Assembly (NCBI GenBank): GCA_964458305.1
Contig: CAYWIH010000006.1
Span: 5,884-69,883, forward strand
Direction: 5' to 3'
Length of the DNA stretch: 64,000 nucleotides
DNA from: an uncultured bacterium
Lineage (GTDB): Bacteria > Cyanobacteriota > Cyanobacteriia > Cyanobacteriales > JASJDA01
The position numbers were made by a program, and so were the translations under genes. The notes under the pieces are model-generated. The model was not told the DNA's origin. It did no database searches and saw only the letters and a program-made list of their open reading frames with translations. Shown piece after piece: positions 20,266-60,287 of the stretch. Each line of letters begins with the position of its first letter. Position 1 is the first letter of the stretch.

Positions 20266-20470
20266 ATGAAAAGATCGAAAAAATAGGAACGCCTGCTCAA
20301 GGCTGTCACCAGCAGCGATTGAGAGGCTAACCCCCCTAAACTGAAACCCCAGTCAGGAGGCTATGAGAAATTTTTTGACACTTCAACCTTTCCGCATTCG
20401 CTAAAAAGTTTGGATTCTTGCTTCACGGGGATCTTTTAGACCTATCCCTCCACAAGCTTGGACGGTATGC
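20266..20470 (-). ncRNA. Putative TnpB-associated omega-RNA (reRNA) scaffold plus flanking guide
   Basis: A GC-rich, stem-forming segment at 20286-20400 lies immediately 3' of the tnpB stop. It ends abruptly at AT-rich flank DNA. The position matches omega-RNAs of IS200/IS605 elements. Boundaries are inferred, not measured. Confidence 0.3.
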
Positions 20471-39061: not shown

Positions 39062-39099
39062 TCCCCAGGTTTATTATTTAAGCTTGGGGATTTTATTTT
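39062..39099 (+). terminator. Putative intrinsic terminator of gap2
   Basis: 8-bp stem 'tccccagg'/'cttgggga' with one G:U pair, followed directly by 'ttttatttta'. Confidence 0.55.
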
Positions 39100-40231
39100 A
39101 AAAGGAAACTTCGATCTCTTCATCGACAACCACTAAGATATTTTCTCGATCGAACTGCTCGAGATAAGCTCGAATTATTTGGTTGAGCGCAATTTCGTTG
39201 TCTATCGTATCGTAAAATAAAAGACTAACAATAATAGATTCTTCTGCAATGATTCTGTTGTTGCTATCGCGAAACTGTTCTTCGGTTTTAAAAATTGTCA
39301 GTCCGTTAGGAAAGCGGGGCGTAATTACATTCTTAATAAACGTATCTAAATCGTTGTCAGAAACTCGATCGCGAGGGGCATAATTATCTTTAAGAAATAA
39401 ATTAACTTCGATCGATTCGGGATTAATATCGTTATCGATAAGATTATTTTCAGCACCAAAACTAACGGTAATATCTTCGTTAACTGCTAATAAAACGCTT
39501 TCTTGGTCGAATTGCTGAATGTATGATTTAATAATTTCATCGATTGCAATTTCATTTTCTAAAGTATCTTTTAATAACAGGGTTACTACTTGAGAAGGTT
39601 CTTGAATAATTGTATTGCTGCGATCTCTATATTGCCCGTCCGCATCAAAAATCGTAAATCCATTAGGAAAACGAGGTGTAATATTATTATCGACAAAGTT
39701 AGCAAATTCTCTTTGAGAAACCTCTTTGCCATTTGGCATACTGCGTCCGAAAAATAAATTGACTTCAATAAATTCGGGATTAGGATTGTTTTCAATTAGA
39801 TTTTCACCTGCGCCAAATCCAACTTTTAATTCATCTTTATTGGTTACTTTTAAGATATTTTTTTCCTCGAATTCTTCTCTATAAGCCGCAGCAATTCGCT
39901 CGATCGCGATTTGGTTTCGATCGCTATCTTCAATAAATAAAGTCACGACTTTAGAGAAGGTTTCGCTAATTTTACCGCTACTATTGCCAAATTGTCTTCT
40001 TGCGTCGAAAATAGTTAATCCATCAGGAAATCGAGGGGTAATATTATTATCGACAAAAGCAGCAAATTCCGTTTCAGAAACTTGCTTTCCTTCGGGAAGA
40101 TTGAGATCGAAAAATAAGTCTTTTTGAATTAGATAAGAGTCTTTTGTTTGCGGATAATCCGTTGCAATTGCTGCGACTATAGCTATAGTTGTCAATAGAT
40201 TTTGTGAAGTTTTTAGTAGTAATCGAATCAT
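39098..40231 (-). CDS. Secreted protein built from three tandem ~115-aa repeats (DUF3574-like)
   Basis: 377 aa with an N-terminal hydrophobic leader. Three copies of the module 'F..FVDN.ITPRFP.G.TIFDA..Q...S...I.E.S.VV.L...D......I..I...Y...F...'. Confidence 0.6.
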   Translation of the reverse strand: MIRLLLKTSQNLLTTIAIVAAIATDYPQTKDSYLIQKDLFFDLNLPEGKQVSETEFAAFVDNNITPRFPDGLTIFDARRQFGNSSGKISETFSKVVTLFIEDSDRNQIAIERIAAAYREEFEEKNILKVTNKDELKVGFGAGENLIENNPNPEFIEVNLFFGRSMPNGKEVSQREFANFVDNNITPRFPNGFTIFDADGQYRDRSNTIIQEPSQVVTLLLKDTLENEIAIDEIIKSYIQQFDQESVLLAVNEDITVSFGAENNLIDNDINPESIEVNLFLKDNYAPRDRVSDNDLDTFIKNVITPRFPNGLTIFKTEEQFRDSNNRIIAEESIIVSLLFYDTIDNEIALNQIIRAYLEQFDRENILVVVDEEIEVSF

Positions 40232-47736: not shown

Positions 47737-48204
47737 GTGAATAGATTTAACAAAATTATTTCTAGTTTATACTCGTCTAAAAATATTATTCTTGGCTTAA
47801 TTTTAATTGTTATTTTATTAGGTGGTTGTGCTAACAAAGAAAAAGATCGAGAATTTGAAATGTACTTTTATAGATCTTTAAATTACATCAATGTAGCTCG
47901 GGGCTTAAACGATATCGATCTCGAAAGGAAAAAAACATTCTTCGAGTCAGAATATACCATGGAATTAGCCCAAAGAATAGCTAGAGAAGATTGCCATCGT
48001 CTCAAAAAAAGAATTAAAGTAGTCGAAAAAAATGAAACTAAAATAGACTTTTTACGGAAAAGAGGACAAAGAACAGAACAAGAAATTGAAGATATTAAAG
48101 ACATCGATCGCGCTATTTATTTAGCAGGAAAATTAAGTTACTGTCCTAAATTTATCGATCCGAAAATTGAAATTTATAAGACAATTCGTAAGAATGAATT
48201 TTAA
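47737..48204 (+). CDS. Hypothetical lipoprotein
   Basis: 155 aa with a GTG start, a signal peptide and lipobox 'LLGGC'. The mature part is a charged helical region. No family recognised. Confidence 0.45.
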   Translation: MNRFNKIISSLYSSKNIILGLILIVILLGGCANKEKDREFEMYFYRSLNYINVARGLNDIDLERKKTFFESEYTMELAQRIAREDCHRLKKRIKVVEKNETKIDFLRKRGQRTEQEIEDIKDIDRAIYLAGKLSYCPKFIDPKIEIYKTIRKNEF

Positions 48205-48353
48205 TTGATATTTGTTTCGCGAAGAGGTTCATTTTAAGATCGTCTCGAAAAGTGGCATAAAAAATAAAGTAAGCTTTAAAATTGGACTCGAGATGCAAAA
48301 AGATGATTTAAATTACTAAAATAGGTAAAAATTGGACGTGAGGCATTTTCCGT

Positions 48354-48719
48354 ATGATGGATTTTGTGGCACAAGCTGCTAAGATTGTAATTACTATATT
48401 AGGGACAAAAGCCTTAGAAAGAATTGGCACAAAATTACCGGATATATTAACAGAGAAAATTCGCAAATTTACCGCATCCCTAGAGCAAATCTCTCCCGAT
48501 ACTGCAAAAGCTCTTAAACTAGCCCCAGAACAACCGTTAAACAGCGATCGAGTAGAAAGAGAAATAATAGCAGCAGCACGAAACAATCCTGAATTTAAAG
48601 AAATATTGCTCGATTTAGAAAAAGCAATACATAATTACTATCTAGCTAGCAAAGGACAGCAAAACATAATTAATAACGATCGAGTTAACCGATTCAGCAA
48701 AAAATATTTTTCAAATTAA
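48354..48719 (+). CDS. Short helical ORF, probably the detached N-terminal module of the downstream STAND NTPase
   Basis: 121 aa. It ends 37 nt before the NACHT reading frame opens in a different frame. It resembles the short helical leaders found on cyanobacterial NACHT proteins. Confidence 0.4.
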   Translation: MMDFVAQAAKIVITILGTKALERIGTKLPDILTEKIRKFTASLEQISPDTAKALKLAPEQPLNSDRVEREIIAAARNNPEFKEILLDLEKAIHNYYLASKGQQNIINNDRVNRFSKKYFSN

Positions 48720-48756
48720 TAATATCGAAAATTTTAATAATACTGTAGGTGACTGA

Positions 48757-51700
48757 AAGCATTCGCATAAGAATAATACACCGTTAGAAATTCACTGGCA
48801 AGATGTTTGCGGAAAAATATTAGAAAAACAGCGAGAATATGGGGAATTTAGACGCAAAGCAACCGATCGAGGTTTTGAATTAAAGATTAATGTAGCTCTA
48901 AGTTTAGTCGATCGCATCCAACAACAGCGAAAAGCAAAAAAAGAAAAAGAAAAAGAAGAAAAAGATCGAACTTTTCCAGGATATTATCAATTCGATCGAT
49001 TTTTAAAAGAAGTTATCGACACTGAAAAAAGCAAGTATATTGCTATTGTTGGTAAACCTGGAGCGGGAAAAACAAAGCTGTTAGAAGATATTGCCTTTTG
49101 GATACAGGAAAATAATAAAGGCTATCCGATATGCGTATCGTTGGGAAAGTTAAAAGATTTAGAAGATTTAGAAAAGAAACCCCTCGAAGAATATTTATTA
49201 AAAGAATGGTTAGAAAAAGCACTGTCATATATCAAAACAAAAATAGACGAGCGACATACTGATGCTTTAAAACAACTATTTAGAGAGGGTAAAGGATGGC
49301 TGCTATTAGATGGTTTGGATGAGATAACAGCTTCTTCCTCCATTAAAGCTTTGGCTCGAATTAAGCAAGAATTGGACGGATTTTTTAATGGGAGAGTAAT
49401 TATTACTTCCAGACTTAATATTGGAGATGGGAGTAGTATCAATCTTGCTGGTTTTGAAACTTATCTCACTCTAGATTTTCAACAAAAACAAGTAGAAGAA
49501 TTTATTCAGCAGTGGTTTGCTGAAGCTGACAAAAAAGATAAGACAAATTTAGCTCTAAAAAAGGTAAAGAGATTACAGAGCAAGTTAAAAGAGACAAAAA
49601 ATATCAAGATTAAAGATTTAGTTAGAAACCCTCTGTCATTATCGCTTTTGTGTCAAATTTTCTATGTAGATGATTCTGTAGAGTTACCCCAAACTAAAGC
49701 ACAACTTTATCGGCTATTTACCCAAAATTTTTATCGCTGGAAACAAGAGCAACATCCAGATTTAATCGAGAAAGATAAACCAGTCAAAAAATTACATAAA
49801 GCTCTTGCTAAATTATCTCTAGCAGCAATTGAAAACAAACTTAGATTTAGAATTAAACGAGAATTTGCTCGCGAAACTATGGGCAATAAAATGTTTAAAT
49901 TAGCTTGGGATTTAGGTTGGTTAAATTTAGTAGAGAAAGAGTCACAATTACAAGGTACTGTTTACTGTTTCTTTCATCCGACTTTTCAAGAATATTTTGC
50001 CGCACAAGCAGTTGACGATTGGCATTTTTTCCTAGATGAAAGATCGAAAGATATAACAAAAAGCATTTATGGTATTTTCGATTCGCAGTGGAAAGAAGTT
50101 ATTTTATTTTGGTTGGGAAGAGAAGATATTAAATCAGATATTAAAGAAAAATTTATTAGTAATTTAAAAGAGTTTCGAGATTTTTGTCAAGGATTTTATG
50201 GTTATCAAGCTTATTTTTTAGCCGCAGCAGGAATTAATGAATTTCAAGATTGCTCTTTAGAGTTAACCGAGGAAATAGTCACAAAAGTAATTGAATTGAG
50301 CTTTGGATATTTCAACGAAGAAATAAAACAATGGATTCAATTTATCGAACCAATTACCAAACCTGCCAAAATAGCATTACTAGAAACCAATCAAAAAATA
50401 GCAATACAATTTTTAATTGAACGGCTAAATAACTGCAAGAAAAGTAGTGTCATTCAAGAAATTATTAATATCTTAGGTAAAATTGCTGTTGGAGATGACA
50501 AGGCGATCGCAACTCTTAAAAACCTCTTAGAAGATAAAGAACTCAATCAAAATGAAAGAATTAGTCTCTGTGCTGCTCATAATTTAGGCATAATCGATCC
50601 AAACAATCAAAAAGCAATTAAAACACAAATAGAACTATTAAAAACTGCCAATCACCATTGGACTCAGATCGACGCAGCAGGAAGCTTACAAGTAATAGGT
50701 AACAACGATCGATTAGCTATCAATGAATTAACAAATATATTAAAAACTAACGATAATACTAATATTTTGGTTTTTGGTACTGATACTCTAGAAATCATTG
50801 CTGTTGGCAATAAAAAATGTATTCAAGAATTAATTGAGTTTATAAATTCTGATAATAATACCTGGAATTGCGAATTAGCAGTTTCTTGCTTGGGAAAAAT
50901 TGCTCCGGGAGATAGCAATGCTGCTGAATCTTTGAAAAATCTACTACAACATACACAAAATCATTTTATCTTTTCTAGAGCTGTAGATAGTTTAAAAGAT
51001 ATTTTGCCAGACAATTTAGAAATAGTTGAATTGCTAAATAGAATTATTCAAGAAACTGAAAATGAAGAAATTAAACAGTCAGCATTTTATTATCTAGAAG
51101 TAATTAATGCCAGTAATCTAATCGCTCTCGAAGCACAGCTAGAAATACTTAAAAAGAATAATAATCAGATCGCTCGTAATCGTGTCGCCAACAAGATAAT
51201 AAGCAAGTATGTAGGAAATAAAAAAGCGATCGAGAGTTTAGATGAAATCATTCAAAACCTAGATTTAGCTCCCTTAAGGATTATAGAATTTGCTGAAATT
51301 TTAGCCGCGATCGATCCTGACAATGACACAGCTATTGATTCAGTTATAGAAATTATTGAAATTGCTAGAAATGACGATATTTTTAAAGAATGGGAAATTG
51401 TTTTAGCCAGAAAAGAGGAAAATGAAAATTCAGATGATTCTGAACTTTTCGCACTGCAAGAAAGAGAAATATTAGAAGTACAAGAACAAAGCAATCCCAA
51501 TAGTAGTTATAGGGATTGTTGCAAAGAAGCGATCGAGTCTTTGGGAAAAATCGGTCAAAACAATCCTAAAGTTATTAGCTTTATTATCGAACTTCTAAAT
51601 ATTAAACAACCTATTAGCTCGGCAGTTTTCGAGACTTTAGCAAAAATTGCTTCTAATAACGAAATTGCTATTGATTCCTTAATAGAAATAATATTAGATA

Positions 51701-52281
51701 ACGATTCTAATAATTCTACTCGTTATGAAGCTATATCTTGTTTGGGAAAAATTGCTATAGGTAATGAAAAGGCGATCGAAGCATTAATAACACTCGTACA
51801 TACTAAAGAAAGAGATATTTTTATAGAAGCTTGTAATAGCCTCGAAAATATTCTTCAAGGTGATTTCGTACCTCAAGCAATTTTCCTTTTAAAAGAGTTT
51901 ATAACCGATGAAATACACCAACAAAATTATTTACTCTACAAATCTTGCTATAAATTAATCGATCGTTGCTCGCAAATTGTTCCTTATACAGTCTTTTATC
52001 GAGCTTGTTACACTCCTAATCTAGAATATTATCAAAAACTTTTAAAAATCAAACAAAAAGTTAACGACAAAATAGGTGAGTTAATTTGTTCGATCGCTAT
52101 CTCTATTTTGTATCTGCGGAAATTTAAAATTAAGGAATTTTTGGCAACAAATAGGTTAGCAGCTCAAATATTAATCACAATTGACACATCGTCTCTCGAT
52201 CTTCTTAACTTACCTCAATCGCTAAAATTGCCAATTAAATTTATAAATATACTCAAAAAGCGATTTTTATCTCGATACTGA
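48757..52281 (+). CDS. NACHT-HEAT repeat STAND NTPase, apparently 5'-disrupted (possible pseudogene or frameshift)
   Basis: The frame is open from 48757. Walker A 'IAIVGKPGAGKTKLL' at 49039-49083, Walker B 'GWLLLDGLDE', and about 600 aa of HEAT/PBS-lyase-like repeats ('LGKIA.G...AI..L..LL'). The first ATG/GTG/TTG in this frame is the TTG at 49141, downstream of the P-loop. Confidence 0.75.
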   Translation, partial: KHSHKNNTPLEIHWQDVCGKILEKQREYGEFRRKATDRGFELKINVALSLVDRIQQQRKAKKEKEKEEKDRTFPGYYQFDRFLKEVIDTEKSKYIAIVGKPGAGKTKLLEDIAFWIQENNKGYPICVSLGKLKDLEDLEKKPLEEYLLKEWLEKALSYIKTKIDERHTDALKQLFREGKGWLLLDGLDEITASSSIKALARIKQELDGFFNGRVIITSRLNIGDGSSINLAGFETYLTLDFQQKQVEEFIQQWFAEADKKDKTNLALKKVKRLQSKLKETKNIKIKDLVRNPLSLSLLCQIFYVDDSVELPQTKAQLYRLFTQNFYRWKQEQHPDLIEKDKPVKKLHKALAKLSLAAIENKLRFRIKREFARETMGNKMFKLAWDLGWLNLVEKESQLQGTVYCFFHPTFQEYFAAQAVDDWHFFLDERSKDITKSIYGIFDSQWKEVILFWLGREDIKSDIKEKFISNLKEFRDFCQGFYGYQAYFLAAAGINEFQDCSLELTEEIVTKVIELSFGYFNEEIKQWIQFIEPITKPAKIALLETNQKIAIQFLIERLNNCKKSSVIQEIINILGKIAVGDDKAIATLKNLLEDKELNQNERISLCAAHNLGIIDPNNQKAIKTQIELLKTANHHWTQIDAAGSLQVIGNNDRLAINELTNILKTNDNTNILVFGTDTLEIIAVGNKKCIQELIEFINSDNNTWNCELAVSCLGKIAPGDSNAAESLKNLLQHTQNHFIFSRAVDSLKDILPDNLEIVELLNRIIQETENEEIKQSAFYYLEVINASNLIALEAQLEILKKNNNQIARNRVANKIISKYVGNKKAIESLDEIIQNLDLAPLRIIEFAEILAAIDPDNDTAIDSVIEIIEIARNDDIFKEWEIVLARKEENENSDDSELFALQEREILEVQEQSNPNSSYRDCCKEAIESLGKIGQNNPKVISFIIELLNIKQPISSAVFETLAKIASNNEIAIDSLIEIILDNDSNNSTRYEAISCLGKIAIGNEKAIEALITLVHTKERDIFIEACNSLENILQGDFVPQAIFLLKEFITDEIHQQNYLLYKSCYKLIDRCSQIVPYTVFYRACYTPNLEYYQKLLKIKQKVNDKIGELICSIAISILYLRKFKIKEFLATNRLAAQILITIDTSSLDLLNLPQSLKLPIKFINILKKRFLSRY

Positions 52282-52733
52282 AGATCGGATTTTAAAAATT
52301 TATTTCACGAAAAAATCGTTAGTGGTAGTGAAGTTTACCTCCGTATTTTCACTAAACTAGTCTTCTAGCGCGTCTAAAATTCGATCCCTATTTTTGGTAA
52401 CTTTCATCGATCGCAGTTTTTTTGTTTTACTCGATCGAGTTTGCTAGCAAATATTTCCGCAAGTCAAGACAATGTTTCGATGTTGCCATTATTGCGATCG
52501 ACCAGCTTAAGAATCGATCGATTGTTATTAGTCAATTTGGCTGAAAATAATTAGTATAAAATCTCATGCTTATTTTTTTGCAAATCTTAATAATTAATAG
52601 TAAGGGTTAAAAAAAAGTACGCTAAAACTCGTTTAAATAAAGCTAAAAATAAAGACAAATTACTTATTTTCTCGAATCAATCGTATTTTAGCAAATAAAA
52701 TCTTTCTTGAAGAGGAAAACGATCGTGAATCAA

Positions 52734-53384
52734 ATGCAGCTTAAAAAGATAGTTATTGCTGGAACTCCAGGAGCGGGAAAAACTACTTTTATCAATACTA
52801 TAAGTCAAATTAAAACAGTTAATACAGATCGAAGAGCAACCGATAAAACTAGCTTGCTCAAATCACATACAACCGTTGGCATGGACTTCGGGAAAATAAA
52901 ACTTTACGACGATTTAGTCTTGCATCTTTATGGCACTCCCGGACAATCTAGATTTAATTTTATGTGGGAAGTTTTAATTACAAAAGCCGATGCATATATT
53001 TTATTAGTCGCAGCCAACCGTCCCGAAGAATTTCCAGAAGTTCGTCAAATTATGACCTTTATGAATCGTTTAATTGCAGTACCGATGATTGTTGGTTTGA
53101 CTCATGTTGACGCTGAAAATGCTCTATCCGCTTCCCAAGTTGCTGCTGGAATAGGACTTAAGAATCATCCAAATAAACCGCCATTTGTGAGTCTCAATGC
53201 TAATAACCCTAAATCTATTAAACAAACTTTAATTGCTTTATTAAAGCATCTCAAAGCACAACAAGTGCAAAATAAATCTTTGCAATTAGCAACTCAAACA
53301 AATCGGAAAATGATTAGTTACGATCGCCAGCAAAGACGTTTTAGAAAAACTGATTTTTTAAAAAGTGGTTTTTCCCTGCATTAA
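52734..53384 (+). CDS. Small Ras-like GTPase of the MglA/CvnD (COG2229) type
   Basis: G1 'GTPGAGKTT', G2 Thr in 'TVGMDFG', G3 'GTPGQSRF', and 'THVD' at the G4 position. The start is uncertain: TTG 52707, GTG 52725 (with GAGGA 8 nt upstream) or ATG 52734. Confidence 0.7.
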   Translation: MQLKKIVIAGTPGAGKTTFINTISQIKTVNTDRRATDKTSLLKSHTTVGMDFGKIKLYDDLVLHLYGTPGQSRFNFMWEVLITKADAYILLVAANRPEEFPEVRQIMTFMNRLIAVPMIVGLTHVDAENALSASQVAAGIGLKNHPNKPPFVSLNANNPKSIKQTLIALLKHLKAQQVQNKSLQLATQTNRKMISYDRQQRRFRKTDFLKSGFSLH

Positions 53385-53415
53385 TTATTGCCAATTTATT
53401 TTCAACTCATAATTT

Positions 53416-53446
53416 AACCTCCTCAGATCTAACTGAAGAGGTTTTT
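53416..53446 (+). terminator. Putative intrinsic terminator after the GTPase gene, between convergent genes
   Basis: Stem 'aacctcctcag'/'ctgaagaggtt' with one mismatch and a 6-nt loop, followed by 'ttt'. Confidence 0.45.
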
Positions 53447-53449
53447 AAT

Positions 53450-53902
53450 TTATTCTTTGAGGTAACGACATCCAGAGGTACAAGTTTCTTGAATTTCCAC
53501 CGCATAAAGTCCGGGTAAACCAGCTTTTTCTAACTTGTTAAAAATCCAGCGGGCTACTTGTTCGCTAGTAGGATTTTCTAAACCCATAGTTTCGTTGAGG
53601 TAGTAGTGATCTAAATATCGATCTAAAAGAGGTTGCAGGTATTCTTTAATATCCCCATAATCGATAACCATACCCTTTTTCGGGCCATTTTCGATTAAAG
53701 CATTTCCTTTAACATATACTTTCCCCAGCCAACTATGTCCGTGCAAGCGACTGCATTTACCATTATGATGGGGTAATTTATGAGCCGCTTCAAAACGAAA
53801 TTCTTTATATATTAACCATTCTTCCACTGTTTCGATCGCTTGGCTGACATTTTTTGATGTTAATTTTATTGTTACTATCTTAACAAACTCATTATTGCTC
53901 AA
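53450..53902 (-). CDS. queD: 6-carboxytetrahydropterin / 6-pyruvoyl-tetrahydropterin synthase (QueD/PTPS family)
   Basis: 150 aa with a TTG start. 'FRFEAAHKL' and the active-site motif 'CSRLHGHSW'. Confidence 0.8.
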   Translation of the reverse strand: MSNNEFVKIVTIKLTSKNVSQAIETVEEWLIYKEFRFEAAHKLPHHNGKCSRLHGHSWLGKVYVKGNALIENGPKKGMVIDYGDIKEYLQPLLDRYLDHYYLNETMGLENPTSEQVARWIFNKLEKAGLPGLYAVEIQETCTSGCRYLKE

Positions 53903-54082
53903 TTCAAGGTTGAATTAGCAGTTCTAGAGGCAAACAACATTATAATTTAAGAAAAGTTTTATTCTTTTAAGGTAAAACCCTCGAGAGAATAAAATTAACA
54001 AAATATTGAGCTTTTAAAAATCCTAAATATTTTAATTTTTATTTCTCAATAATTCGAGCAAATATTTACTCCGATCGATCGA

Positions 54083-54865
54083 TTAATCGAGCATGGGTAA
54101 AAGTTCTTCTACTAAACGTTTAATTGCCAGAAAAACGATCCCTTGCTTGGCTTCTTTCGTTGCCAAAATCAGTAAAGCCACTTCTTCGCCACAACCAACC
54201 AAAATACTGTAACCTTTTTCCCCTTCAACTAAAACCCGTTCGATCGCCCCTCGAGCCAGATCGAACGCGATGCGATCGCCCAAAGATAGCATTGCTGCTG
54301 ACATAGCCGCAGTTCTTTCTTCGTCAAGGGGATCGGGTAAAACTGCAGTTATCGGCAACCCATCGGGGCTAACCAAAATTGCTCCTTCAATCTGTGGAGT
54401 ATTGACAATAAAGTCTTGTAATTTATTTTGTAAACTGGATACTTCTATCATGTTAGGCTTTTCAAGCAATTCATCGTTAAAAGTTTTACTTATTGTAATA
54501 TCAGAAGATCGATAATGTTTGAGAATAGCAATTAAATCTTCTTTAGAAATTGGTTTGGCTAAATAATAATCTGCCCCCTGTTTTATGCCCCAATACTTAT
54601 CCATTTCACTATTTTTATTCGAACAAAGGATAATTGGGATATGGCTTGTTTTGATACTATCTTTAAGAATACGACAAATTTCAAATCCGCTGCGATTTGG
54701 TAAAACAATATCTAAAATAATTAAACTTGGTTTATTGGTGTCAATTTTGTCTAGAGCATCTTCACCGCTTTCAGAAATACAAACTGAAAAGCCTTCTTGC
54801 TCCAAACAAATCTTAATAATTTCTCTATCCGTGATACTATCTTCAACTATGAGGGCAGTTTCCAT
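54083..54865 (-). CDS. Response regulator: receiver domain fused to a Roadblock/LC7 (MglB-like) domain
   Basis: 260 aa. REC motifs are 'LIVEDS', phospho-acceptor 'LIILDIVLP' and 'YYLAKP'. The C-terminal 'IEGAILVSPDGLPI...DEERTAAMSAAMLSLG' is Roadblock/LC7-like. Confidence 0.8.
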   Translation of the reverse strand: METALIVEDSITDREIIKICLEQEGFSVCISESGEDALDKIDTNKPSLIILDIVLPNRSGFEICRILKDSIKTSHIPIILCSNKNSEMDKYWGIKQGADYYLAKPISKEDLIAILKHYRSSDITISKTFNDELLEKPNMIEVSSLQNKLQDFIVNTPQIEGAILVSPDGLPITAVLPDPLDEERTAAMSAAMLSLGDRIAFDLARGAIERVLVEGEKGYSILVGCGEEVALLILATKEAKQGIVFLAIKRLVEELLPMLD

Positions 54866-55056
54866 ATTGTCTTGCTACCTCGATCTCGATCTTCGCGATC
54901 GGCTAACTTGATTAAAACTATTAAAGTAAATTGTTATTATACCGTTTCAGTTTAATATTGCTACACTCGATCGCTTCTGAGTTCGGCAAGTGTAGCCTCT
55001 TGTTTCGCGCCTCTGCTATTAGGATAAGGCAAGGTAGATAAATAAAGGTAAAAGAA

Positions 55057-55084
55057 GGGATAAAAAACCAGGATTTATTATCCC
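55057..55084 (-). terminator. Putative intrinsic terminator after the ACP-AONS gene
   Basis: 7-bp stem 'gggataa'/'ttatccc' with a 14-nt loop. The minus strand continues 'ttcttttacctttattt'. Confidence 0.4.
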
Positions 55085-55162
55085 TATCCCTGGGAAGATA
55101 ATTCTTATTTTTACTCTCAAGTAATTAAGCTTAAAGATCGTCGTCAGTAATTTTTTCCCTAT

Positions 55163-56737
55163 CTATATAAGAGTTGAATTTTTACCTTTGAGTAGATCTA
55201 ATTCTTCACTTAAGGCATCGACGGTAAAACGAATTTGCTCTTCTGTATGAGTACAAGTTATAAAAAAACGTAACCTCGCCTCATTTTGAGGTACGGAAGG
55301 GTAAAACATAAAGGGAACGTTGATGCCGCGAGCGAAAAGATGGCGAGAAAGGACAACAGACTTTAAAGAATCGCCGACCACGATCGGAATTACTGGAGAA
55401 TCTTTAGAGATACCAGTATTCAAGCCTCGCTCCTTAGCTAATTGTAAAAATAATTTAGCTCTTTGATGCAAGATTTTGACTCTTTGGGGTTCTTTTTTAA
55501 GTAACTCGATCGCGGCTAGAGTAGCTGCGGCATTAGGTGGGGCCATACCGACGCTAAAAACGAAACCGGGGGCAGTATATTTAAGATACTCGATTAAAGC
55601 CGCAGATCCAGCGATATACCCCCCACAACTAGCAAAAGACTTGCTAAGAGTTCCCATCCATAAATCTACATCATTGGGGTCTACAGCGAAATATTCGCCG
55701 ATACCGCGACCGTTTTCCCCTAAGACTCCGATCGAATGGGCTTCATCTACCATCAAAAAAGTTTTATGCCGCTTTTTAATTTCGATAAACTGCGGTAAAG
55801 GTGCGATATCGCCGTCGGTGCTGTAAATACCTTCAATAACGATTAAAACTCGCTTGTAATAGCTGCGGCGATCGCTCAATATTTCATCTAATTTTTCCCA
55901 GTCGTTGTGAGGAAAAGCTAGGACTGTCGCTCCAGATAAAAAACAGCCTTGTAAAATACTATTGTGAGAGAGGCTGTCGTGTACGATCAAATCGTTTTTA
56001 CCGAATAAATGACCGATGGTACTGACGTTAGTAGCGTGACCGCCGACGTACACTATACTAGCTTCAGTGCCGATAAAAGCGGCAATTTCTCGCTCTAATT
56101 CTTGGTGTAAAGGTTTTTCCCCGCAAACCAAACGACTCGCACAAGCAGAAGTTCCGTAACGGGCGATCGCTTGATTGGCTGCCGCAGATACGAACGGATC
56201 GCCGCACATATCTAAATAATTGTAAGTCGCGTAATTGATAAACTGGCGATCGCCAATAGTTGTAGTATTATTAACAATTCCTTCTTGAGGGATAAAAAAG
56301 GGATTGCCCAGACCCAAAGATTCGATTTCTTGTTGCTGTAATTTTAATTGTTTGTATTCGGGAGAAAGTTCGAAATTGTAATATTCTGGTAAAATTTCTT
56401 CTGCTTGTCGTTCTGAAGCCGGATAAGATGAGTCTGGAAGGATTTCTGCGGCTAAATATTGCGCTAAGACCTCGATATTTTGATAGTCCCACAATAAAGT
56501 GGGTGCGAGCCTCCTGCCTAAAAAACTTTCTAATTCTCCAGATAAGTTTACTGCTTCGATCGAGTTGAGACTGTAATCGATAAAATCTCGTTTTGGATCG
56601 ATCTCGTCCGTTTCTAAATCTAGTTTTTTAGCTAATTTTTCGATCAACCAGTTTTTGATTTTCGTTTCAGAAACCTTAGCTATATCATAAGTTTGAGGAC
56701 TTTGTTTGCCATTGGGTATATCTTTAGATATTGTCAT
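55163..56737 (-). CDS. Carrier protein (ACP/PCP) fused to a PLP-dependent alpha-oxoamine synthase (BioF/Spt/CqsA family)
   Basis: 524 aa. The N-terminal PP-binding domain has Ser in 'DYSLNSIEAVNL'. The AONS core has 'HDSLSHNS', 'VDEAHSIG' and the PLP Lys in 'GTLSKSFASCGGY'. Confidence 0.87.
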   Translation of the reverse strand: MTISKDIPNGKQSPQTYDIAKVSETKIKNWLIEKLAKKLDLETDEIDPKRDFIDYSLNSIEAVNLSGELESFLGRRLAPTLLWDYQNIEVLAQYLAAEILPDSSYPASERQAEEILPEYYNFELSPEYKQLKLQQQEIESLGLGNPFFIPQEGIVNNTTTIGDRQFINYATYNYLDMCGDPFVSAAANQAIARYGTSACASRLVCGEKPLHQELEREIAAFIGTEASIVYVGGHATNVSTIGHLFGKNDLIVHDSLSHNSILQGCFLSGATVLAFPHNDWEKLDEILSDRRSYYKRVLIVIEGIYSTDGDIAPLPQFIEIKKRHKTFLMVDEAHSIGVLGENGRGIGEYFAVDPNDVDLWMGTLSKSFASCGGYIAGSAALIEYLKYTAPGFVFSVGMAPPNAAATLAAIELLKKEPQRVKILHQRAKLFLQLAKERGLNTGISKDSPVIPIVVGDSLKSVVLSRHLFARGINVPFMFYPSVPQNEARLRFFITCTHTEEQIRFTVDALSEELDLLKGKNSTLI

Positions 56738-57013
56738 AGTTTGCTCCTTACACCACGCTTATCGAGCAATTTGATTGCCAAGCTGTTTAATCTTTGTCTT
56801 CAAATGGTAAAACTAATCCAGAGGTTAACAAAAAAATTCTCTTAATGACAGCAAAACTTACAGATCGTCAGATCGACAGCATTGGAGATCTCGGTAGAAA
56901 CCTACCATAGTAAGTCCGCACAAAATTGAGATAATTTATTAATCTAAATTTGTTTATCAAAAAAAAATAATTAAAAAAATTAATTTTTGCTGTTAGTCTT
57001 CTGGCGAACCCTC

Positions 57014-58777
57014 CTACTCGATCGCTTCTAAAGTTCCGTTGAGAAAACCGGCCCGAGTTGCGTATCGCTGAATTTTACCGCTAGGAGTTTTAGGAATGCT
57101 TCCGGGTTTGAGTAAGATGGCAGCGTCTAATTGCAATTCGTGATATGTAAATACTACTTTACGAATAGATTTAATCAGTTCTGCGGGGGAAAAATTGCCG
57201 TTATTAGCGTTAATATTGGTTTTTTGACTGCGATAGTAAGAACGTTCTATTTCCGAGGCAATCGCTAATTTTTGTTGTCCGTCTTTGATAAAAGAAAATA
57301 CAGCAGAACAATGGGGTCTAATTTGGGGGTGATTTTCTGCGACGGTTTTTTCGATATCTTGAGGGTAATAGTTGCGACCGTTTAAAATTATTATGTCTTT
57401 GAGACGACCCGTACAATATAATTCACCCTCGGCCATAAATCCTAAATCTCCGGTACGTAAAAAAGGCCCTTCTTGAGTGTCTGCTAAATATGCTGCAAAA
57501 TTTTTTGCGGTTGCTTCGGGTTGTTGCCAATAACCTTGGGCTATGCTCGGCCCTTTTACCCAGATTTCCCCTATTTCTCCTTCAGCTTTTTCGATCGATG
57601 TTTCGGGATCGACGATAACTATTTTTTGATCCTGAATGCTGCGGCCGCAACTAACTAACTGACGTACCTTATCCTCATCTTCAAAGCTAGCTGGTTCGGC
57701 TCGATCGAACTCTAATTCTGCTGCTTTAACCGTCCGGGTTTTGACTCGATCGCTGCAAGCAATACCCGCAATTAATAAAGTAGCTTCAGCCATACCGTAA
57801 CAAGGATAAAATGCTTCGGGGCGAAAGCCAGTCGGGGCAAAATATTCGCTAAAAGCAGCGATTACTTGATAGTCGATCGGTTCTGCACCGTTAAAAGCTA
57901 CTTTCCAACTACTGAGATCGAGATCTTTGAGCTGTTCTGGTTTGATTTTACGCACGCAAAGATCGTAAGCAAAATTGGGGCCGCCGCTAGTAGTAGCTCG
58001 ATGACGCGAAATTGCTTGCAACCAGCGCAAAGGATTTTGTAAAAACATCAAAGGAGACATCAAAATTACCGGAAAGCCGCCGTAAAGGGGTTGTAAAACA
58101 CCTCCGATCGAACCCATATCGTGATAAGGTGGCAGCCAGATCGCTCCTTTACTATTATTGTCGTGTTCGAAACAGCGATAAATCGATTCTAAATTATGCA
58201 TTAAATTGCGGTGGGCGATCGCCACTCCTTTCGGTTCTGCTGTAGAGCCGGAAGTATATTGTAAAAAAGCCAAACTATCGCCGTCGAGTTTCGGTTTTTG
58301 CCAGTTGGTAGCTTGTTGTTTCGAGCAGCGATCGCTCAGGATTAATTTCAGGTTTTTGAGTTCGGGGACGTATTGATAGCAGCGTTCGAGATTGGCTTTA
58401 ATTGAATTGGTTGTTAAAGCAATTTTTACCCCTGCATTTGCTATAATTCTTTGAATGCGTTCGCTCGAACGGTTCGGTCGCGGTGGATACGCTGGAACTG
58501 CAATAATTCCAGCAAAAAGACAACCAAAAAATGCAGCAATGTATTCTAGACCTGGGGGATAAAGAAGTAAAACCCGATCGCCAGGTCGGGCAATAGTTTG
58601 TAATTTAGCCGCGATCGCCAAAGCAAGTAGTTCTAATTCTTTGTAAGTCAGACAAACAGCGTCATTCTCTCCGTCGACTAAAAATGTATAGCCGATTTTT
58701 TCTGGTTGATGTTCGGCCCGATAAGATAATAAATCTACTAAAGTGTCGAGGTGTAAATTTTTTTCTGAAAAACTCAT
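57014..58777 (-). CDS. Fatty acyl-AMP ligase (FAAL)
   Basis: 587 aa. FAAL-type N-terminus 'LVDLLSYRAEHQPEKIGYTFL', AMP-binding 'LQYTSGSTAEPKGV', 'GDLGF', and C-terminal 'PKTPSGKIQR'. Confidence 0.87.
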   Translation of the reverse strand: MSFSEKNLHLDTLVDLLSYRAEHQPEKIGYTFLVDGENDAVCLTYKELELLALAIAAKLQTIARPGDRVLLLYPPGLEYIAAFFGCLFAGIIAVPAYPPRPNRSSERIQRIIANAGVKIALTTNSIKANLERCYQYVPELKNLKLILSDRCSKQQATNWQKPKLDGDSLAFLQYTSGSTAEPKGVAIAHRNLMHNLESIYRCFEHDNNSKGAIWLPPYHDMGSIGGVLQPLYGGFPVILMSPLMFLQNPLRWLQAISRHRATTSGGPNFAYDLCVRKIKPEQLKDLDLSSWKVAFNGAEPIDYQVIAAFSEYFAPTGFRPEAFYPCYGMAEATLLIAGIACSDRVKTRTVKAAELEFDRAEPASFEDEDKVRQLVSCGRSIQDQKIVIVDPETSIEKAEGEIGEIWVKGPSIAQGYWQQPEATAKNFAAYLADTQEGPFLRTGDLGFMAEGELYCTGRLKDIIILNGRNYYPQDIEKTVAENHPQIRPHCSAVFSFIKDGQQKLAIASEIERSYYRSQKTNINANNGNFSPAELIKSIRKVVFTYHELQLDAAILLKPGSIPKTPSGKIQRYATRAGFLNGTLEAIE

Positions 58778-58934: not shown

Positions 58935-60287
58935 ATGAGCCAAAATATTTATCAAGCTTGCCTGATCGAAATCACTGAAGATCCTCGTCTCGGACAGACT
59001 AATAAAACTTATTTAATTTCTGCCGAGCATTCGACAATTTTGGGCCGAGCAGTTAGTTGTGAAATTACGATCGATTCTAGTCAATATCAATCTGTTTCGC
59101 GCCGACACGCAGAAATTCGCCCCATGGCTTCAAAAACCAGCGACGGCTATCCGATGTGGCAACTTTGCGACTTAGAAAGCGTCAACGGTACTTATATTAA
59201 CGGTCAGTTGCTCGAGGGCTGTCAAAATCTCGAACCCGGCGATCGCATTTCTTTAGGAAGAACCGGCCCTTTATTTATCTTTGATTGGCAAGTTAACCAC
59301 CAACAGGTTTCTTTGACTAATGCCCGCAAACTGACTCAAACAGACTCGGTTCACCTGACTCAATTAATTCCGATTCTTTCTTCGCAACAAGATTTATTAG
59401 AAAAGGCTTACTTATTGCCAGGTTTGATTACTGTTTTAGTGGTAATTGGATTGTTTGCTAGTATCGGCGATCGGCTAGTTTTTAACAGTCTTTTGGGTAT
59501 TTATTTGGCCTCTGCTGGCTTTTATTATGTCTATCGTTTGGGGGGGAAACACAAGCCTTGGTGGTTGTCGATCGCTTCTGCTTTAATTACGGTCGCCATT
59601 ATCACCAGTCCGATGCTGGATATATTTTTATTTGTCTTTCGCGATCTTTTGCCCGGACAAATTGTCGGCGATGTCGAAAATATTAGCTTTTTTGCCCTGT
59701 TCGTGAGAATGTTTTTTGGCGCGGGGCTGATGGAAGAGTTACTCAAGGCAATACCGGTATTTATTTTTTTATTATTAGGCAGGATGTTAAAATCTCCCTG
59801 GCGCGAAGCTGTCGGCGTTTGGGAACCCCTCGACGGCATCTTAATTGCTACTGCTTCTGCTGCTGGTTTTACCCTGGTAGAAACCGTTTTTCAATACGTT
59901 CCAGATATCATTCAAACTATCAGTGCTAGCGGCGATCCCGTCCGAGCGCAAGAAGTCGGCACTCAATTACTAATTCCTCGGATCGTCGGTGCTGTGGCCG
60001 GACACATGGCTTATAGCGGTTACTTCGGTTATTTTATCGGTTTTAGCGTCCTCAAACCCAAAAAACGCTGGTTGCTTTTGGCGATCGGTTATTTAAGTTC
60101 TTCTGCCATTCACGCCCTTTGGAACGCTTCTAATGCTTTTGAAGAACCCTGGAATATCATGGTTTTGGCCCTTGCAGGTGTCTTTGCTTACTTGTTTTTA
60201 GTCGCAGCAATTCTCAAAGCCCGTCAAATATCTCCGACTCGATCGCAAAATTTCGCCACTCGGTTGGGAAGACCCCATAACTGGTAA
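58935..60287 (+). CDS. FHA domain fused to a PrsW-family intramembrane protease
   Basis: 450 aa. FHA motifs: 'ILGRA...SRRHAEI...SVNGTYING...GDRISLG'. The membrane domain carries the PrsW motifs 'MEELLKAIPV', 'GHMAYSGYFGYF' and 'AIHALWN'. Confidence 0.8.
   Translation: MSQNIYQACLIEITEDPRLGQTNKTYLISAEHSTILGRAVSCEITIDSSQYQSVSRRHAEIRPMASKTSDGYPMWQLCDLESVNGTYINGQLLEGCQNLEPGDRISLGRTGPLFIFDWQVNHQQVSLTNARKLTQTDSVHLTQLIPILSSQQDLLEKAYLLPGLITVLVVIGLFASIGDRLVFNSLLGIYLASAGFYYVYRLGGKHKPWWLSIASALITVAIITSPMLDIFLFVFRDLLPGQIVGDVENISFFALFVRMFFGAGLMEELLKAIPVFIFLLLGRMLKSPWREAVGVWEPLDGILIATASAAGFTLVETVFQYVPDIIQTISASGDPVRAQEVGTQLLIPRIVGAVAGHMAYSGYFGYFIGFSVLKPKKRWLLLAIGYLSSSAIHALWNASNAFEEPWNIMVLALAGVFAYLFLVAAILKARQISPTRSQNFATRLGRPHNW

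What the first reader, a model, noticed from the sequence alone, without database searches (positions are those of the whole stretch)
55163..58777. Minimal two-gene FAAL plus ACP-alpha-oxoamine-synthase module predicted to make a lipid alpha-aminoketone
Seen: the 587-aa FAAL ('LQYTSGSTAEPKGV') is followed 276 bp downstream on the same strand by a 524-aa fusion. That fusion joins a carrier domain (Ser in 'LNSIEA') to an AONS-family PLP enzyme (Lys in 'GTLSKSF'). No KS, AT, NRPS, reductase or ceramide-synthase gene is adjacent. Established: FAALs adenylate fatty acids and load them onto carrier proteins. AONS enzymes (BioF, serine palmitoyltransferase, CqsA/LqsA, the SxtA C-terminus) condense an amino acid with an acyl thioester by decarboxylative Claisen chemistry. 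Bacterial sphingolipid synthesis in Caulobacter also uses a dedicated ACP, an acyl-ACP synthetase and Spt. Inference: this pair should produce a long-chain 2-amino-3-ketone. That product could be a sphingoid-base-like lipid or the precursor of a CAI-1/LAI-1-type alpha-hydroxyketone signal. The next gene on the same strand is a response regulator, which loosely recalls lqsA-lqsR. However, a hairpin at 55057-84 suggests separate transcription.
Basis: partly seen in the sequence, partly recalled or inferred. Interest (0 to 1): 0.7.

Follow-up and report, generated by a model that had tools for sequence, protein, structure and literature searches.

The report
Fatty-acid-to-amino-lipid starter gene pair
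Two neighbouring genes in a marine cyanobacterium very probably load a fatty acid onto a built-in carrier and join it to an amino acid, giving the first building block of a sphingolipid-like lipid; this gene family is widespread in cyanobacteria, where no sphingolipid genes have yet been identified.

Summary
They are a 587-aa fatty acyl-AMP ligase (FAAL, 57014-58777) and, 276 bp downstream, a 524-aa ACP-AONS fusion (55163-56737). All catalytic residues are in place. The pair is not a one-off. The ACP-AONS protein is conserved at 62-72% identity across many cyanobacteria (Trichodesmium, Arthrospira, Lyngbya, Moorena, Pleurocapsales). The three parts occur as separate genes, as this two-part fusion, or as a single FAAL-ACP-AONS protein, which argues strongly that they work together. 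The AONS domain falls in a well-supported clade of carrier-linked AONS domains. That clade lies outside BioF, Kbl and bacterial Spt and is nearest to eukaryotic serine palmitoyltransferase. In three Pirellulales genomes the fused form sits beside a homologue of the bacterial ceramide N-acyltransferase YghO. In other relatives it sits beside ketoreductases, lipid hydroxylases and lipid glycosyltransferases. The best reading is a fused-carrier counterpart of the characterized AasR-AcpR-Spt sphingolipid starter system, making a long-chain 2-amino-3-ketone. Serine is the most likely amino acid but is unproven. Biotin synthesis and lqsA/cqsA-type signalling are not supported, and the response regulator is not linked in a close relative. 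Verdict: a new variant of a known kind, of moderate interest.

The parts
57014..58777 (-). Fatty acyl-AMP ligase (FAAL), 587 aa. The adenylation motif 'YTSGSTAEPKG' is encoded at nt 58223-58264. The FAAL-specific insertion is at about residues 341-375 (nt 57653-57757).
   Evidence: Pfam AMP-binding 232 bits plus AMP-dom_DIP2-like. NCBIfam FAAL models score 396-433 bits against about 163 bits or less for acyl-CoA ligase models. The best PDB match is 7R7E-G, the FAAL domain of the PCC 7002 olefin synthase, at 590 bits. The roughly 24-residue insertion is shared with EcFAAL/AasR and absent from FadD.
56738..57013 (-). 276-bp AT-rich spacer between the FAAL and the ACP-AONS. It holds promoter-like hexamers at 56960-56931 and no terminator-like site.
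   Evidence: Sequence read. Consensus scan. No Rfam match. Whether the two genes are co-transcribed is not settled.
55163..56737 (-). ACP-AONS fusion protein, 524 aa.
   Evidence: Pfam PP-binding plus Aminotran_1_2. The family is conserved at 62-98% identity and at 62-72% across cyanobacterial genera.
56453..56650 (-). Acyl carrier domain (residues 30-95). The phosphopantetheine-attachment Ser59 is at codon 56561-56563.
   Evidence: PP-binding E 1e-12. Ser59 is invariant in alignment A1. Codon checked.
55211..56242 (-). PLP-dependent alpha-oxoamine synthase domain (residues 166-509). The PLP Lys366 is at codon 55640-55642. His258, Asp331, His334 and Arg490 are also present.
   Evidence: Pfam. 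Alignment to SPT structures. Motif alignment against Spt, Kbl and BioF. Residues checked.
55051..55091 (-). Stem-loop with a U-rich tail downstream of the ACP-AONS stop codon; a possible weak intrinsic terminator.
   Evidence: Folds: -13.5 kcal/mol, z -0.51 against shuffles. Not listed by the consensus terminator scan.

Best explanation
This is a two-gene starter module for an amino lipid. Step 1 (inferred from family membership): the FAAL adenylates a free long-chain fatty acid, probably C16-C18. Like other FAALs it does not make the CoA ester. Step 2 (inferred; supported by gene fusions in relatives): it transfers the acyl group to the phosphopantetheine arm on Ser59 of the carrier domain at the N-terminus of the second protein. 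Step 3 (inferred from conserved catalytic residues): the C-terminal PLP enzyme, with its cofactor on Lys366, forms an external aldimine with an amino acid, most probably L-serine. It then performs a decarboxylative Claisen condensation on the acyl-S-carrier thioester. This releases a free long-chain 2-amino-3-ketone; with serine that product is 3-oxosphinganine. The module is the cyanobacterial, carrier-fused counterpart of the AasR (FAAL) - AcpR (ACP) - Spt system that starts sphingolipid synthesis in Caulobacter and E. coli B. Reduction, N-acylation or glycosylation are not encoded at this locus. If they happen, they must be done by genes elsewhere in the genome. The confidence given (0.7) is for the general mechanism (fatty acid -> carrier -> amino-acid condensation -> lipid aminoketone); the serine/sphingoid-base version alone is about 0.4-0.45.
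For: Domains and catalytic residues are intact. FAAL class is shown by the FAAL-specific insertion and by much higher scores to FAALs than to acyl-CoA ligases. The closest solved FAAL is the olefin-synthase loading domain (590 bits; entry identified in PMC11837247), which prefers C18 fatty acid (PMC11730487). Functional coupling of the three parts is supported by gene fusion. ACP and AONS are separate, overlapping genes in five Oscillatoriales genomes. They are fused here. FAAL, ACP and AONS form one polypeptide in Nostocales, Acidobacteria and Pirellulales. Among 74 judgeable loci, a FAAL is fused in 20 and lies within 6 kb in 25. The AONS domain is 51-68% identical to carrier-linked AONS domains but only 31-33% identical to E. 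coli BioF, Kbl and E. coli B Spt. It sits in a clade with 100% bootstrap support that is sister to eukaryotic LCB2 (97%). SPTs are its best solved-structure matches (243 bits against 165-186 for BioF and 85 for CqsA). The characterized E. coli B set reads FAAL-reductase-ACP-Spt (PMC9386255). A YghO/bCerS homologue (34-35% identity, E about 1e-72) lies directly beside the fused enzyme in 3 Pirellulales loci. Those AONS domains are 66-68% identical to the window's and identical in the active-site blocks. Relatives are flanked by SDRs, OlsC/LpxO-type acyl hydroxylases, B12-radical-SAM enzymes and MGDG-synthase-like glycosyltransferases. PfSgaAB shows that an AOS acting on a synthase-bound acyl chain can be a true, serine-specific SPT (PMC12134224).
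Against: No biochemical data exist for any member of this clade in the literature I could search. The protein falls below every NCBIfam Spt equivalog cut-off (312 against 640, 294 against 500, 223 against 670). It lies outside the bacterial Spt references in the tree. The amino-acid substrate cannot be read from sequence, and megasynthase AONS domains are known to use glycine, alanine or arginine (RedL, Fum8, SxtA; from my own knowledge). The window has no reductase, N-acyltransferase or glycosyltransferase linked to the pair. The bCerS link comes from a different phylum. In 21 of 74 loci, mostly Pleurocapsales, no FAAL lies nearby. Chain length is inferred only from similarity to the olefin-synthase FAAL.
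Confidence: 0.7

Rival explanations
1. The machinery is the same, but the amino acid is not serine (for example alanine or glycine). The product would then be a 1-deoxysphingoid-type amino ketone or alcohol, or another amino-lipid natural product, not a sphingolipid precursor. Such alpha-aminoketones might also dimerize to pyrazines.
For: The clade is distinct from all bona fide Spt groups and fails their equivalog cut-offs. Its nearest relatives include the ends of large PKS-like proteins typical of secondary metabolism. Cyanobacterial clusters carry tailoring genes not seen in known ceramide pathways, namely Rieske oxygenases and B12-radical-SAM enzymes. No cyanobacterial locus has a bCerS homologue nearby.
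Against: Spt-type residues flank the catalytic His and Lys ('AHS', 'S-K-S'), unlike Kbl and BioF. SPTs are the best solved-structure matches. The Pirellulales members are linked to bCerS. Family members occur in Moorena and Scytonema, the two cyanobacterial genera from which sphingolipids have been reported (PMC8895605, PMC6272925).
Confidence: 0.22
2. The pair makes an alpha-hydroxyketone-type autoinducer precursor (CAI-1/LAI-1-like), and the downstream response regulator senses it, as in lqsA-lqsR.
For: A response regulator follows on the same strand 297 bp downstream. AONS chemistry also underlies CqsA and LqsA.
Against: CqsA is the weakest AONS-family match (85 bits; NF005526 169 bits against a cut-off of 428). 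The regulator is a REC-Roadblock/LC7 protein lying near a small Ras/MglA-like GTPase gene, which suggests a different module. In the 90%-identical marine relative, a peptidase and a transposase gene separate the pair from a Roadblock gene that has no REC domain. No regulator recurs across the 80 surveyed loci. No sensor kinase is adjacent.
Confidence: 0.03
3. It is biotin synthesis. The ligase would activate pimelate onto the carrier and the AONS would act as BioF, making 8-amino-7-oxononanoate.
For: The best single NCBIfam hit by score is the bioF model (354 bits). Databases often name family members '8-amino-7-oxononanoate synthase'.
Against: The score is below the bioF cut-off of 426. Identity to E. 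coli BioF is only 31%, the lowest of the references, and the tree places BioF furthest away. There are no bio genes in the window. The distribution is patchy: Nostoc punctiforme has a single AOS, a stand-alone BioF (PMC8895605). The neighbours in relatives are lipid-tailoring genes. The ligase most resembles a C18-preferring FAAL. BioF entries from Moorea producens and Scytonema HK-05 are listed in the cyanobacterial BioF clade, which suggests the two enzymes coexist, although protein lengths were not given.
Confidence: 0.03
4. The pair is an inactive remnant of a larger cluster, because the tailoring genes seen in relatives are missing here.
For: None of the accessory genes occurs in the 64-kb window.
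Against: Both ORFs are full length with every catalytic residue intact. The same minimal FAAL -> ACP-AONS arrangement is kept in Trichodesmium, Dapis and a 90%-identical marine relative with conserved flanking synteny.
Confidence: 0.04

Closest known systems
AasR-AcpR-Spt sphingolipid starter system of Caulobacter crescentus and E. coli BL21(DE3) (PMC9386255)
   Same: The enzyme logic is the same: a dedicated FAAL-type acyl-ACP synthetase, a dedicated carrier protein, and a PLP alpha-oxoamine synthase that prefers the acyl-carrier thioester. The E. coli B AasR is annotated as a FAAL and is 34% identical to the window FAAL.
   Different: Here the carrier is fused to the N-terminus of the AONS. 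The AONS is only 33% identical to E. coli B Spt and belongs to a different clade. There is no CerR-type reductase or bCerS gene at the locus. The host is a cyanobacterium, a phylum with no assigned sphingolipid genes (PMC8895605).
PfSgaAB of Pseudomonas fluorescens MYb115 (PMC12134224)
   Same: An AOS with demonstrated serine-specific SPT activity takes an acyl chain held on a synthase carrier and releases a sphingoid base, outside the canonical Spt pathway.
   Different: In PfSgaAB the chain is built by an iterative PKS, and the AOS is a separate protein. Here a FAAL recruits a ready-made fatty acid. Sequence relatedness to SgaB was not tested because I had no sequence for it.
C-terminal ACP-AONS release modules of megasynthases (SxtA of saxitoxin synthesis, RedL/RedN/PigH of prodiginine synthesis; named from my own knowledge, not tested here)
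   Same: A carrier domain sits directly upstream of an AONS that off-loads the chain by Claisen condensation with an amino acid. The window's AONS groups with such carrier-linked domains with 100% bootstrap support.
   Different: Those enzymes are parts of multi-module PKS lines and use arginine, glycine or serine on short or beta-keto chains. This is a minimal free-standing didomain fed by a separate FAAL.
BioF (8-amino-7-oxononanoate synthase)
   Same: Same fold and catalytic residues, and often the same database name.
   Different: The score is below the equivalog cut-off, identity is 31%, BioF is the most distant reference in the tree, and there is no biotin gene context.

Membership tests
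Fatty acyl-AMP ligase (FAAL) | Adenylate-forming fold with the conserved adenylation motifs | tested here: met
   Pfam AMP-binding 232 bits. 'YTSGSTAEPKG' at residues 174-184.
Fatty acyl-AMP ligase (FAAL) | FAAL-specific insertion that is absent from acyl-CoA ligases | tested here: met
   About 24 extra residues (around 341-375) are shared with EcFAAL/AasR and the Trichodesmium FAAL and are absent from E. coli FadD (alignment A2).
Fatty acyl-AMP ligase (FAAL) | Closer to characterized FAALs than to acyl-CoA ligases | tested here: met
   PDB: olefin-synthase FAAL 590 bits, LpFAAL 468, FadD32 about 300-330. NCBIfam: FAAL models 396-433 bits against about 163 or less for CoA ligases, although below the high cut-offs of those subfamily models.
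Fatty acyl-AMP ligase (FAAL) | Transfers the acyl group to holo-ACP and not to CoA | not testable with these tools
   This needs an enzyme assay.
Alpha-oxoamine synthase (AONS/AOS) family of PLP enzymes | Fold-type I aminotransferase domain with the PLP lysine and the His / Asp-x-x-His / Arg catalytic set | tested here: met
   Aminotran_1_2 E 8e-47. Lys366, His258, Asp331, His334 and Arg490 align with the equivalents in SPT, Kbl and BioF.
Carrier-linked (megasynthase-type) AONS clade | Groups with AONS domains that follow a carrier domain, apart from stand-alone BioF, Kbl and Spt | tested here: met
   32 such sequences form a clade with 100% bootstrap support; identity within it is 48-89%.
BioF (8-amino-7-oxononanoate synthase) | Reaches the curated equivalog score (TIGR00858) | tested here: not met
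   354 bits against a cut-off of 426.
BioF (8-amino-7-oxononanoate synthase) | Clusters with genuine BioF and has biotin gene context | tested here: not met
   31% identity to E. coli BioF, the most distant reference in the tree. No bio genes in the window.
Serine palmitoyltransferase (Spt) | Reaches a curated Spt equivalog score | tested here: not met
   NF047600 312 against 640; NF047599 294 against 500; NF047603 223 against 670.
Serine palmitoyltransferase (Spt) | Groups with known SPTs in a phylogeny | tested here: inconclusive
   The clade is sister to eukaryotic LCB2/SPTLC2 (97%) but outside the two bacterial Spt references. Only six references were used, with neighbour joining.
Serine palmitoyltransferase (Spt) | Spt-type residues next to the catalytic His and Lys | tested here: met
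   'DEAHS' and 'S-K-S' as in all four SPT references, against 'SHA/AHG' and 'GKA/GKG' in Kbl and BioF. The reference set is small, so this is suggestive only.
Serine palmitoyltransferase (Spt) | Uses L-serine to give 3-oxosphinganine | not testable with these tools
   This needs an enzyme assay or isotope labelling.
AasR-AcpR-Spt bacterial sphingolipid system | A dedicated FAAL-type synthetase, a dedicated ACP and an AONS encoded together | tested here: met
   All three functions are present in two adjacent genes. The comparator locus is L089.
AasR-AcpR-Spt bacterial sphingolipid system | Linked ceramide genes (CerR-type reductase, bCerS/YghO N-acyltransferase) | tested here: not met
   None in the window. 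A YghO homologue is adjacent only in three Pirellulales relatives.
CqsA/LqsA alpha-hydroxyketone autoinducer synthase | Reaches the curated equivalog score (NF005526) and has a linked cognate sensor and regulator | tested here: not met
   169 bits against a cut-off of 428. CqsA structures score 85 bits, the lowest of the family. The regulator is REC-Roadblock and is not syntenic in a close relative.

The most novel reading that the evidence does not exclude
This gene family is the missing cyanobacterial route to sphingoid bases. Under this reading, Trichodesmium, Arthrospira ('spirulina'), Lyngbya, Moorena, Scytonema and this Prochloraceae-type marine cyanobacterium make 3-oxosphinganine-type long-chain bases from free fatty acids. 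They would do so through a FAAL -> fused carrier -> Spt-like AONS that is closer to eukaryotic LCB2 than to known bacterial Spt. This would give the first genetic basis for cyanobacterial sphingolipids.
Probability: 0.4. Interest if true: 0.7.

Novelty: new variant of a known kind. Interest (0 to 1): 0.55.

Why it matters
A 2022 study states that no sphingolipid enzymes or free long-chain bases have been characterized in any cyanobacterium, and that the cerebroside from Moorea and the sphingomyelin-like lipid from Scytonema have no known genetic basis (PMC8895605). Both genera carry members of this family. Nostoc punctiforme, in which no sphingolipids were found, has only a stand-alone BioF. 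If the family does make sphingoid bases, it gives a marker gene for sphingolipid-type lipids in ecologically and commercially important cyanobacteria such as Trichodesmium and Arthrospira. It would also add a third architecture to bacterial sphingolipid initiation, after AasR/AcpR/Spt and SgaAB. It further offers a compact two-gene module for making amino lipids from free fatty acids. If the amino acid proves not to be serine, the module points to an undescribed class of cyanobacterial amino lipids.

Tried and rejected
(1) Biotin synthesis was rejected on score, phylogeny, context and distribution. (2) lqsA/cqsA-like signalling with the adjacent response regulator was rejected. The CqsA match is the weakest, the regulator is not syntenic in the 90% relative, and it belongs to a Roadblock/GTPase-type neighbourhood. 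(3) I searched for accessory genes (SDR, OlsC-like hydroxylase, Rieske oxygenase, B12-radical-SAM, MFS, GNAT/bCerS) elsewhere in the window and found none. (4) I scanned the intergenic regions for known RNA elements and found none. (5) I tested the hairpin as a terminator. It is present but no better than shuffles. (6) I tried to link the Moorena cluster to the cerebroside mooreaside A through a ceramide-glucosyltransferase-like gene. The enzyme is a generic GT2 with only a weak GT21 signal (41.8 bits), and the compound came from field material, so this remains a lead only. (7) Literature searches for FAAL + ACP + AONS in cyanobacteria found nothing, and two FAAL reviews do not mention AONS partners. 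(9) I considered predicting the amino-acid substrate from pocket residues. I did not pursue this beyond motif comparison, because no coordinates were available and the reference set was small. (10) My first bootstrap script timed out, so I reran the tree with a faster implementation.

Full report
OBSERVATION. The two ORFs are real and have the stated sizes and coordinates, but they run on the minus strand. The upstream gene (57014-58777, 587 aa) has a Pfam AMP-binding domain and the C-terminal domain typical of FAAL/DIP2 proteins. The downstream gene (55163-56737, 524 aa) has a PP-binding carrier domain (residues 30-95) followed by an Aminotran_1_2 domain (residues 166-509). The spacer between them is 276 bp. 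The quoted motifs are all present. Ser59 ('LNSIEA') and Lys366 ('GTLSKSF') are invariant in 13 family members. Lys366 aligns with the PLP lysine of solved serine palmitoyltransferases. His258, Asp331, His334 and Arg490, the remaining catalytic set of alpha-oxoamine synthases, are also in place.

The rest of the window is ordinary cyanobacterial chromosome, with LdpA, MurB/MurC, SpoT, SecA, sucrose synthase and ribosomal proteins. It contains no PKS, NRPS, reductase, ceramide or biotin genes. The closest database proteins (88-98% identity) are annotated as Prochloraceae cyanobacterium MAGs, and a 90% relative comes from TARA Oceans assemblies.

THE LIGASE IS A FAAL. It scores 396-433 bits on NCBIfam FAAL models, against about 163 bits or less on acyl-CoA ligase models. 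Aligned with the E. coli B FAAL (AasR), the Trichodesmium homologue and the acyl-CoA ligase FadD, it shares the roughly 24-residue FAAL-specific insertion that FadD lacks. Its best solved relative by a wide margin (590 bits) is PDB 7R7E-G. A review identifies that entry as the FAAL domain of the Picosynechococcus PCC 7002 PKS (PMC11837247). The olefin-synthase FAAL of that organism prefers octadecanoic acid in vitro (PMC11730487). A long-chain fatty acid substrate is therefore likely, but it is inferred and not shown.

THE PAIR IS A CONSERVED FAMILY, AND THE THREE PARTS TRAVEL TOGETHER. The ACP-AONS protein has full-length homologues at 62-72% identity in Trichodesmium, Okeania, Dapis, Moorena, Lyngbya, Arthrospira, Planktothrix, Pleurocapsales and some Nostocales. 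At about 55% identity it also has homologues in Pirellulales, Acidobacteria and a Desulfobulbaceae MAG. I called ORFs in the 80 loci returned by the genome survey and clustered the neighbours. The family exists in three states:
- In five Oscillatoriales genomes, ACP (154-165 aa) and AONS (437-441 aa) are separate genes with overlapping stop and start codons.
- In the window, Trichodesmium, Dapis, Moorena and Pleurocapsales, the ACP and AONS are fused.
- In Nostocales, Acidobacteria and Pirellulales, FAAL, ACP and AONS form one polypeptide of about 1,100-1,200 aa.

Scytonema HK-05 has a FAAL-ACAD-ACP-AONS polypeptide of 1,708 aa. Of the 74 loci that can be judged, the FAAL is fused in 20 and lies within 6 kb in 25. 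In 8 the AONS ends a PKS-like protein. In 21, mostly Pleurocapsales where the gene sits between sigma-factor genes, no FAAL is nearby.

WHAT KIND OF AONS. An exhaustive search of 1.8 billion representatives shows that, outside the cyanobacterial cluster, the nearest relatives are AONS domains at the C-terminus of proteins of 1,000-2,800 aa. Pfam confirms FAAL-ACP-AONS, TE-ACAD-ACP-AONS and ER-KR-ACP-AONS architectures. I took experimentally anchored references from E. coli K-12 (BioF, Kbl), from E. coli BL21(DE3) (Spt, AcpR, AasR, YghO; functions from PMC9386255), and from the alignments printed for solved SPT structures. The window's AONS domain is 31% identical to BioF, 32% to Kbl and 33% to E. 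coli B Spt over the full-length pairwise hits. Over the extracted 356-residue AONS core it is 35-37% identical to eukaryotic LCB2/SPTLC2 and Sphingobacterium SPT, and 51-68% identical to the carrier-linked domains.

A neighbour-joining tree with 100 bootstraps puts all 32 carrier-linked domains in one clade (100%). The cyanobacterial family is monophyletic within it (97%). The clade as a whole is sister to eukaryotic LCB2 (97%), and BioF is the most distant reference. The reference sampling is thin (six sequences, no ALAS, CqsA or SxtA), so the LCB2 relationship is provisional. The protein reaches no curated equivalog cut-off: bioF 354 against 426, three Spt models 223-312 against 500-670, Kbl 294 against 460, and the CqsA-type model 169 against 428. 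Among solved structures, SPTs rank first (233-243 bits), BioF scores 165-186, and CqsA is last at 85. At the positions next to the catalytic histidine and lysine that separate the references, the clade carries the Spt pattern ('DEAHS', 'S/T-K-S') and not the Kbl/BioF pattern.

LINKS TO SPHINGOLIPID-TYPE CHEMISTRY. The characterized starter set in E. coli B reads FAAL (AasR) - epimerase/reductase - ACP (AcpR) - Spt, with yghO next door. PMC9386255 shows that AasR acylates only AcpR and that the Spts prefer acyl-AcpR. The window's pair is the same logic with the carrier fused.

In three Pirellulales loci (L065, L072, L075), the gene directly beside the FAAL-ACP-AONS fusion is a full-length homologue of YghO (34-35% identity over about 380 residues, E 1e-72 to 1e-74). 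YghO is the N-acyltransferase listed as required for dihydroceramide formation (PMC9386255). Their AONS domains are 66-68% identical to the window's and identical in the active-site blocks. A metagenomic survey independently counted Spt-like genes in 138 Planctomycetota MAGs (PMC11334938).

In cyanobacterial relatives the neighbours are lipid-tailoring enzymes:
- OlsC/LpxO-type acyl 2-hydroxylases (274 bits to OlsC), a Rieske oxygenase and a B12-radical-SAM protein in Lyngbya, Arthrospira, Planktothrix and others.
- An SDR plus an MGDG-synthase-like glycosyltransferase in three Nostocales loci.
- SDRs, a second FAAL, a GMC oxidoreductase and a GT2 in Moorena.

PfSgaAB from Pseudomonas (PMC12134224) shows that an AOS working on a synthase-tethered acyl chain can be a genuine, serine-specific SPT. 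Finally, Moorena and Scytonema both carry family members, and these are the two cyanobacterial genera from which sphingolipids have been reported (PMC8895605; mooreaside A, PMC6272925). Nostoc punctiforme, where none were found, has only a stand-alone BioF (PMC8895605). This is an anecdotal correlation over three taxa, and mooreaside A came from field-collected material.

MECHANISM. The most likely sequence is as follows. The FAAL adenylates a long-chain fatty acid and transfers it to the phosphopantetheine on Ser59. The AONS domain, with PLP on Lys366, binds an amino acid, condenses it with the acyl thioester with loss of CO2, and releases a free 2-amino-3-ketone. No part of this is shown experimentally. 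The architecture, the catalytic residues and the fusion pattern are shown here. The chemistry follows from established knowledge of FAALs and AONS enzymes. Serine as the amino acid, and C16-C18 as the chain length, are inferences. I put the general mechanism at about 0.7 and the serine (sphingoid base) version at about 0.4-0.45.

RIVALS. Biotin synthesis is disfavoured on score, phylogeny, context, patchy distribution and the nature of the ligase. The supplement of PMC8895605 also lists BioF entries from Moorea producens and Scytonema HK-05 within the cyanobacterial BioF clade. That suggests those taxa have both enzymes, though protein lengths were not given and I could not scan whole genomes. 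The quorum-sensing idea fails for several reasons. CqsA is the weakest family match. The downstream regulator is a REC-Roadblock/LC7 protein lying near a small Ras/MglA-like GTPase gene. In the 90%-identical TARA relative the FAAL side is syntenic (FHA-PrsW, SecA), but a peptidase and a transposase gene separate the pair from a Roadblock gene without a REC domain. A non-serine amino acid remains a serious alternative. A decayed remnant is unlikely, given intact ORFs and the same minimal arrangement in Trichodesmium and Dapis.

TRANSCRIPTION. No terminator-like site lies in the 276-bp spacer, which does contain promoter-like hexamers. A stem-loop with a U-rich tail lies 72 nt after the ACP-AONS stop codon (55051-55091), but it is no more stable than shuffled sequence. 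No Rfam family matches the intergenic regions. Operon structure is therefore undecided.

NOVELTY AND VERDICT. I found no paper describing a FAAL plus ACP-AONS module in cyanobacteria or elsewhere, and two FAAL reviews do not mention AONS partners. The enzyme logic is known (AasR/AcpR/Spt; PKS-AOS SgaAB; ACP-AONS release domains). This is therefore a new variant of a known kind and not a new kind of system. It is moderately interesting because it is a concrete, easily testable candidate for the unknown cyanobacterial route to sphingoid-type lipids, and because it occurs in globally important genera.

Noticed in passing
window 54083-54865 (-), 53450-53902 (-), 52707-53384 (+): The response regulator downstream of the pair is a REC domain fused to a Roadblock/LC7 domain. 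It lies near a QueD/PTPS-family gene and a small Ras/Arf-like GTPase gene. That arrangement resembles MglA/MglB-type GTPase-regulator modules and not a lipid-signal sensor. In the 90% relative, the Roadblock gene has no REC domain.
   Followed up: partly
window 58935-60287 (+): A single protein fuses an FHA phosphopeptide-binding domain to a PrsW-family intramembrane protease. It is divergent from the FAAL and syntenic with it and with SecA in the TARA relative (L084).
   Followed up: no
tree of AONS domains; PDB ranking: The whole carrier-linked bacterial AONS clade groups with eukaryotic LCB2/SPTLC2 (97% bootstrap) and not with bacterial Spt. LCB2 proteins are also its best solved-structure matches. 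Both share 'YNYL' where bacterial enzymes have 'NxYL'. Reference sampling was too thin to draw an evolutionary conclusion.
   Followed up: partly
L031:6515-11641 (Scytonema sp. HK-05): This FAAL-ACP-AONS protein has an acyl-CoA-dehydrogenase domain inserted between the FAAL and the ACP. P0124 is a related TE-ACAD-ACP-AONS form. A dehydrogenase acting on the carrier-bound acyl chain would place a 2,3-double bond, which would become the 4,5-double bond of a sphingosine-type product. This idea is speculative.
   Followed up: no
L038:9932-10408, L039:9941-10405, L035:9932-10408, L052:9926-10405: The free-standing ACPs of the Oscillatoriales clusters end in a conserved acidic tail (...LL[EQ]xLDQ[ML]SDxEVDxLLNSMLS[ED]EE...). 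It may be a docking element for the separately encoded AONS.
   Followed up: no
L006, L010, L013-L029 (Pleurocapsales loci): In Pleurocapsales the ACP-AONS gene lies between two sigma-70-family factor genes (about 327 aa upstream and about 255 aa downstream), often with cobD/cbiB nearby, and has no FAAL within 6 kb. How the carrier is loaded in these genomes is unexplained.
   Followed up: partly
window 12804-14327 (+): A protein combining an ethylene-receptor-like (ETR1) N-terminal membrane domain, a GAF domain and a GGDEF diguanylate cyclase domain.
   Followed up: no
window 20401-21609 (-): An IS605 OrfB/TnpB-type gene (OrfB_IS605 plus the Cas12f-like TNB domain). A related element also ends the TARA relative's locus L084.
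   Followed up: no
window 48000-54000, especially 49141-52281 (+): A low-GC stretch (31-33% against about 38-44% elsewhere) holds a 1,046-aa HEAT-repeat protein with a NACHT C-terminal Cys/His motif. It may be a recently acquired or fast-evolving region bordering the locus.
   Followed up: no
window 40757-44653 (+) and 39098-40231 (-): A 1,298-aa methyl-accepting chemotaxis-type protein with five GAF domains (PixJ-like photoreceptor architecture), and a protein made of three DUF3574 repeats.
   Followed up: no
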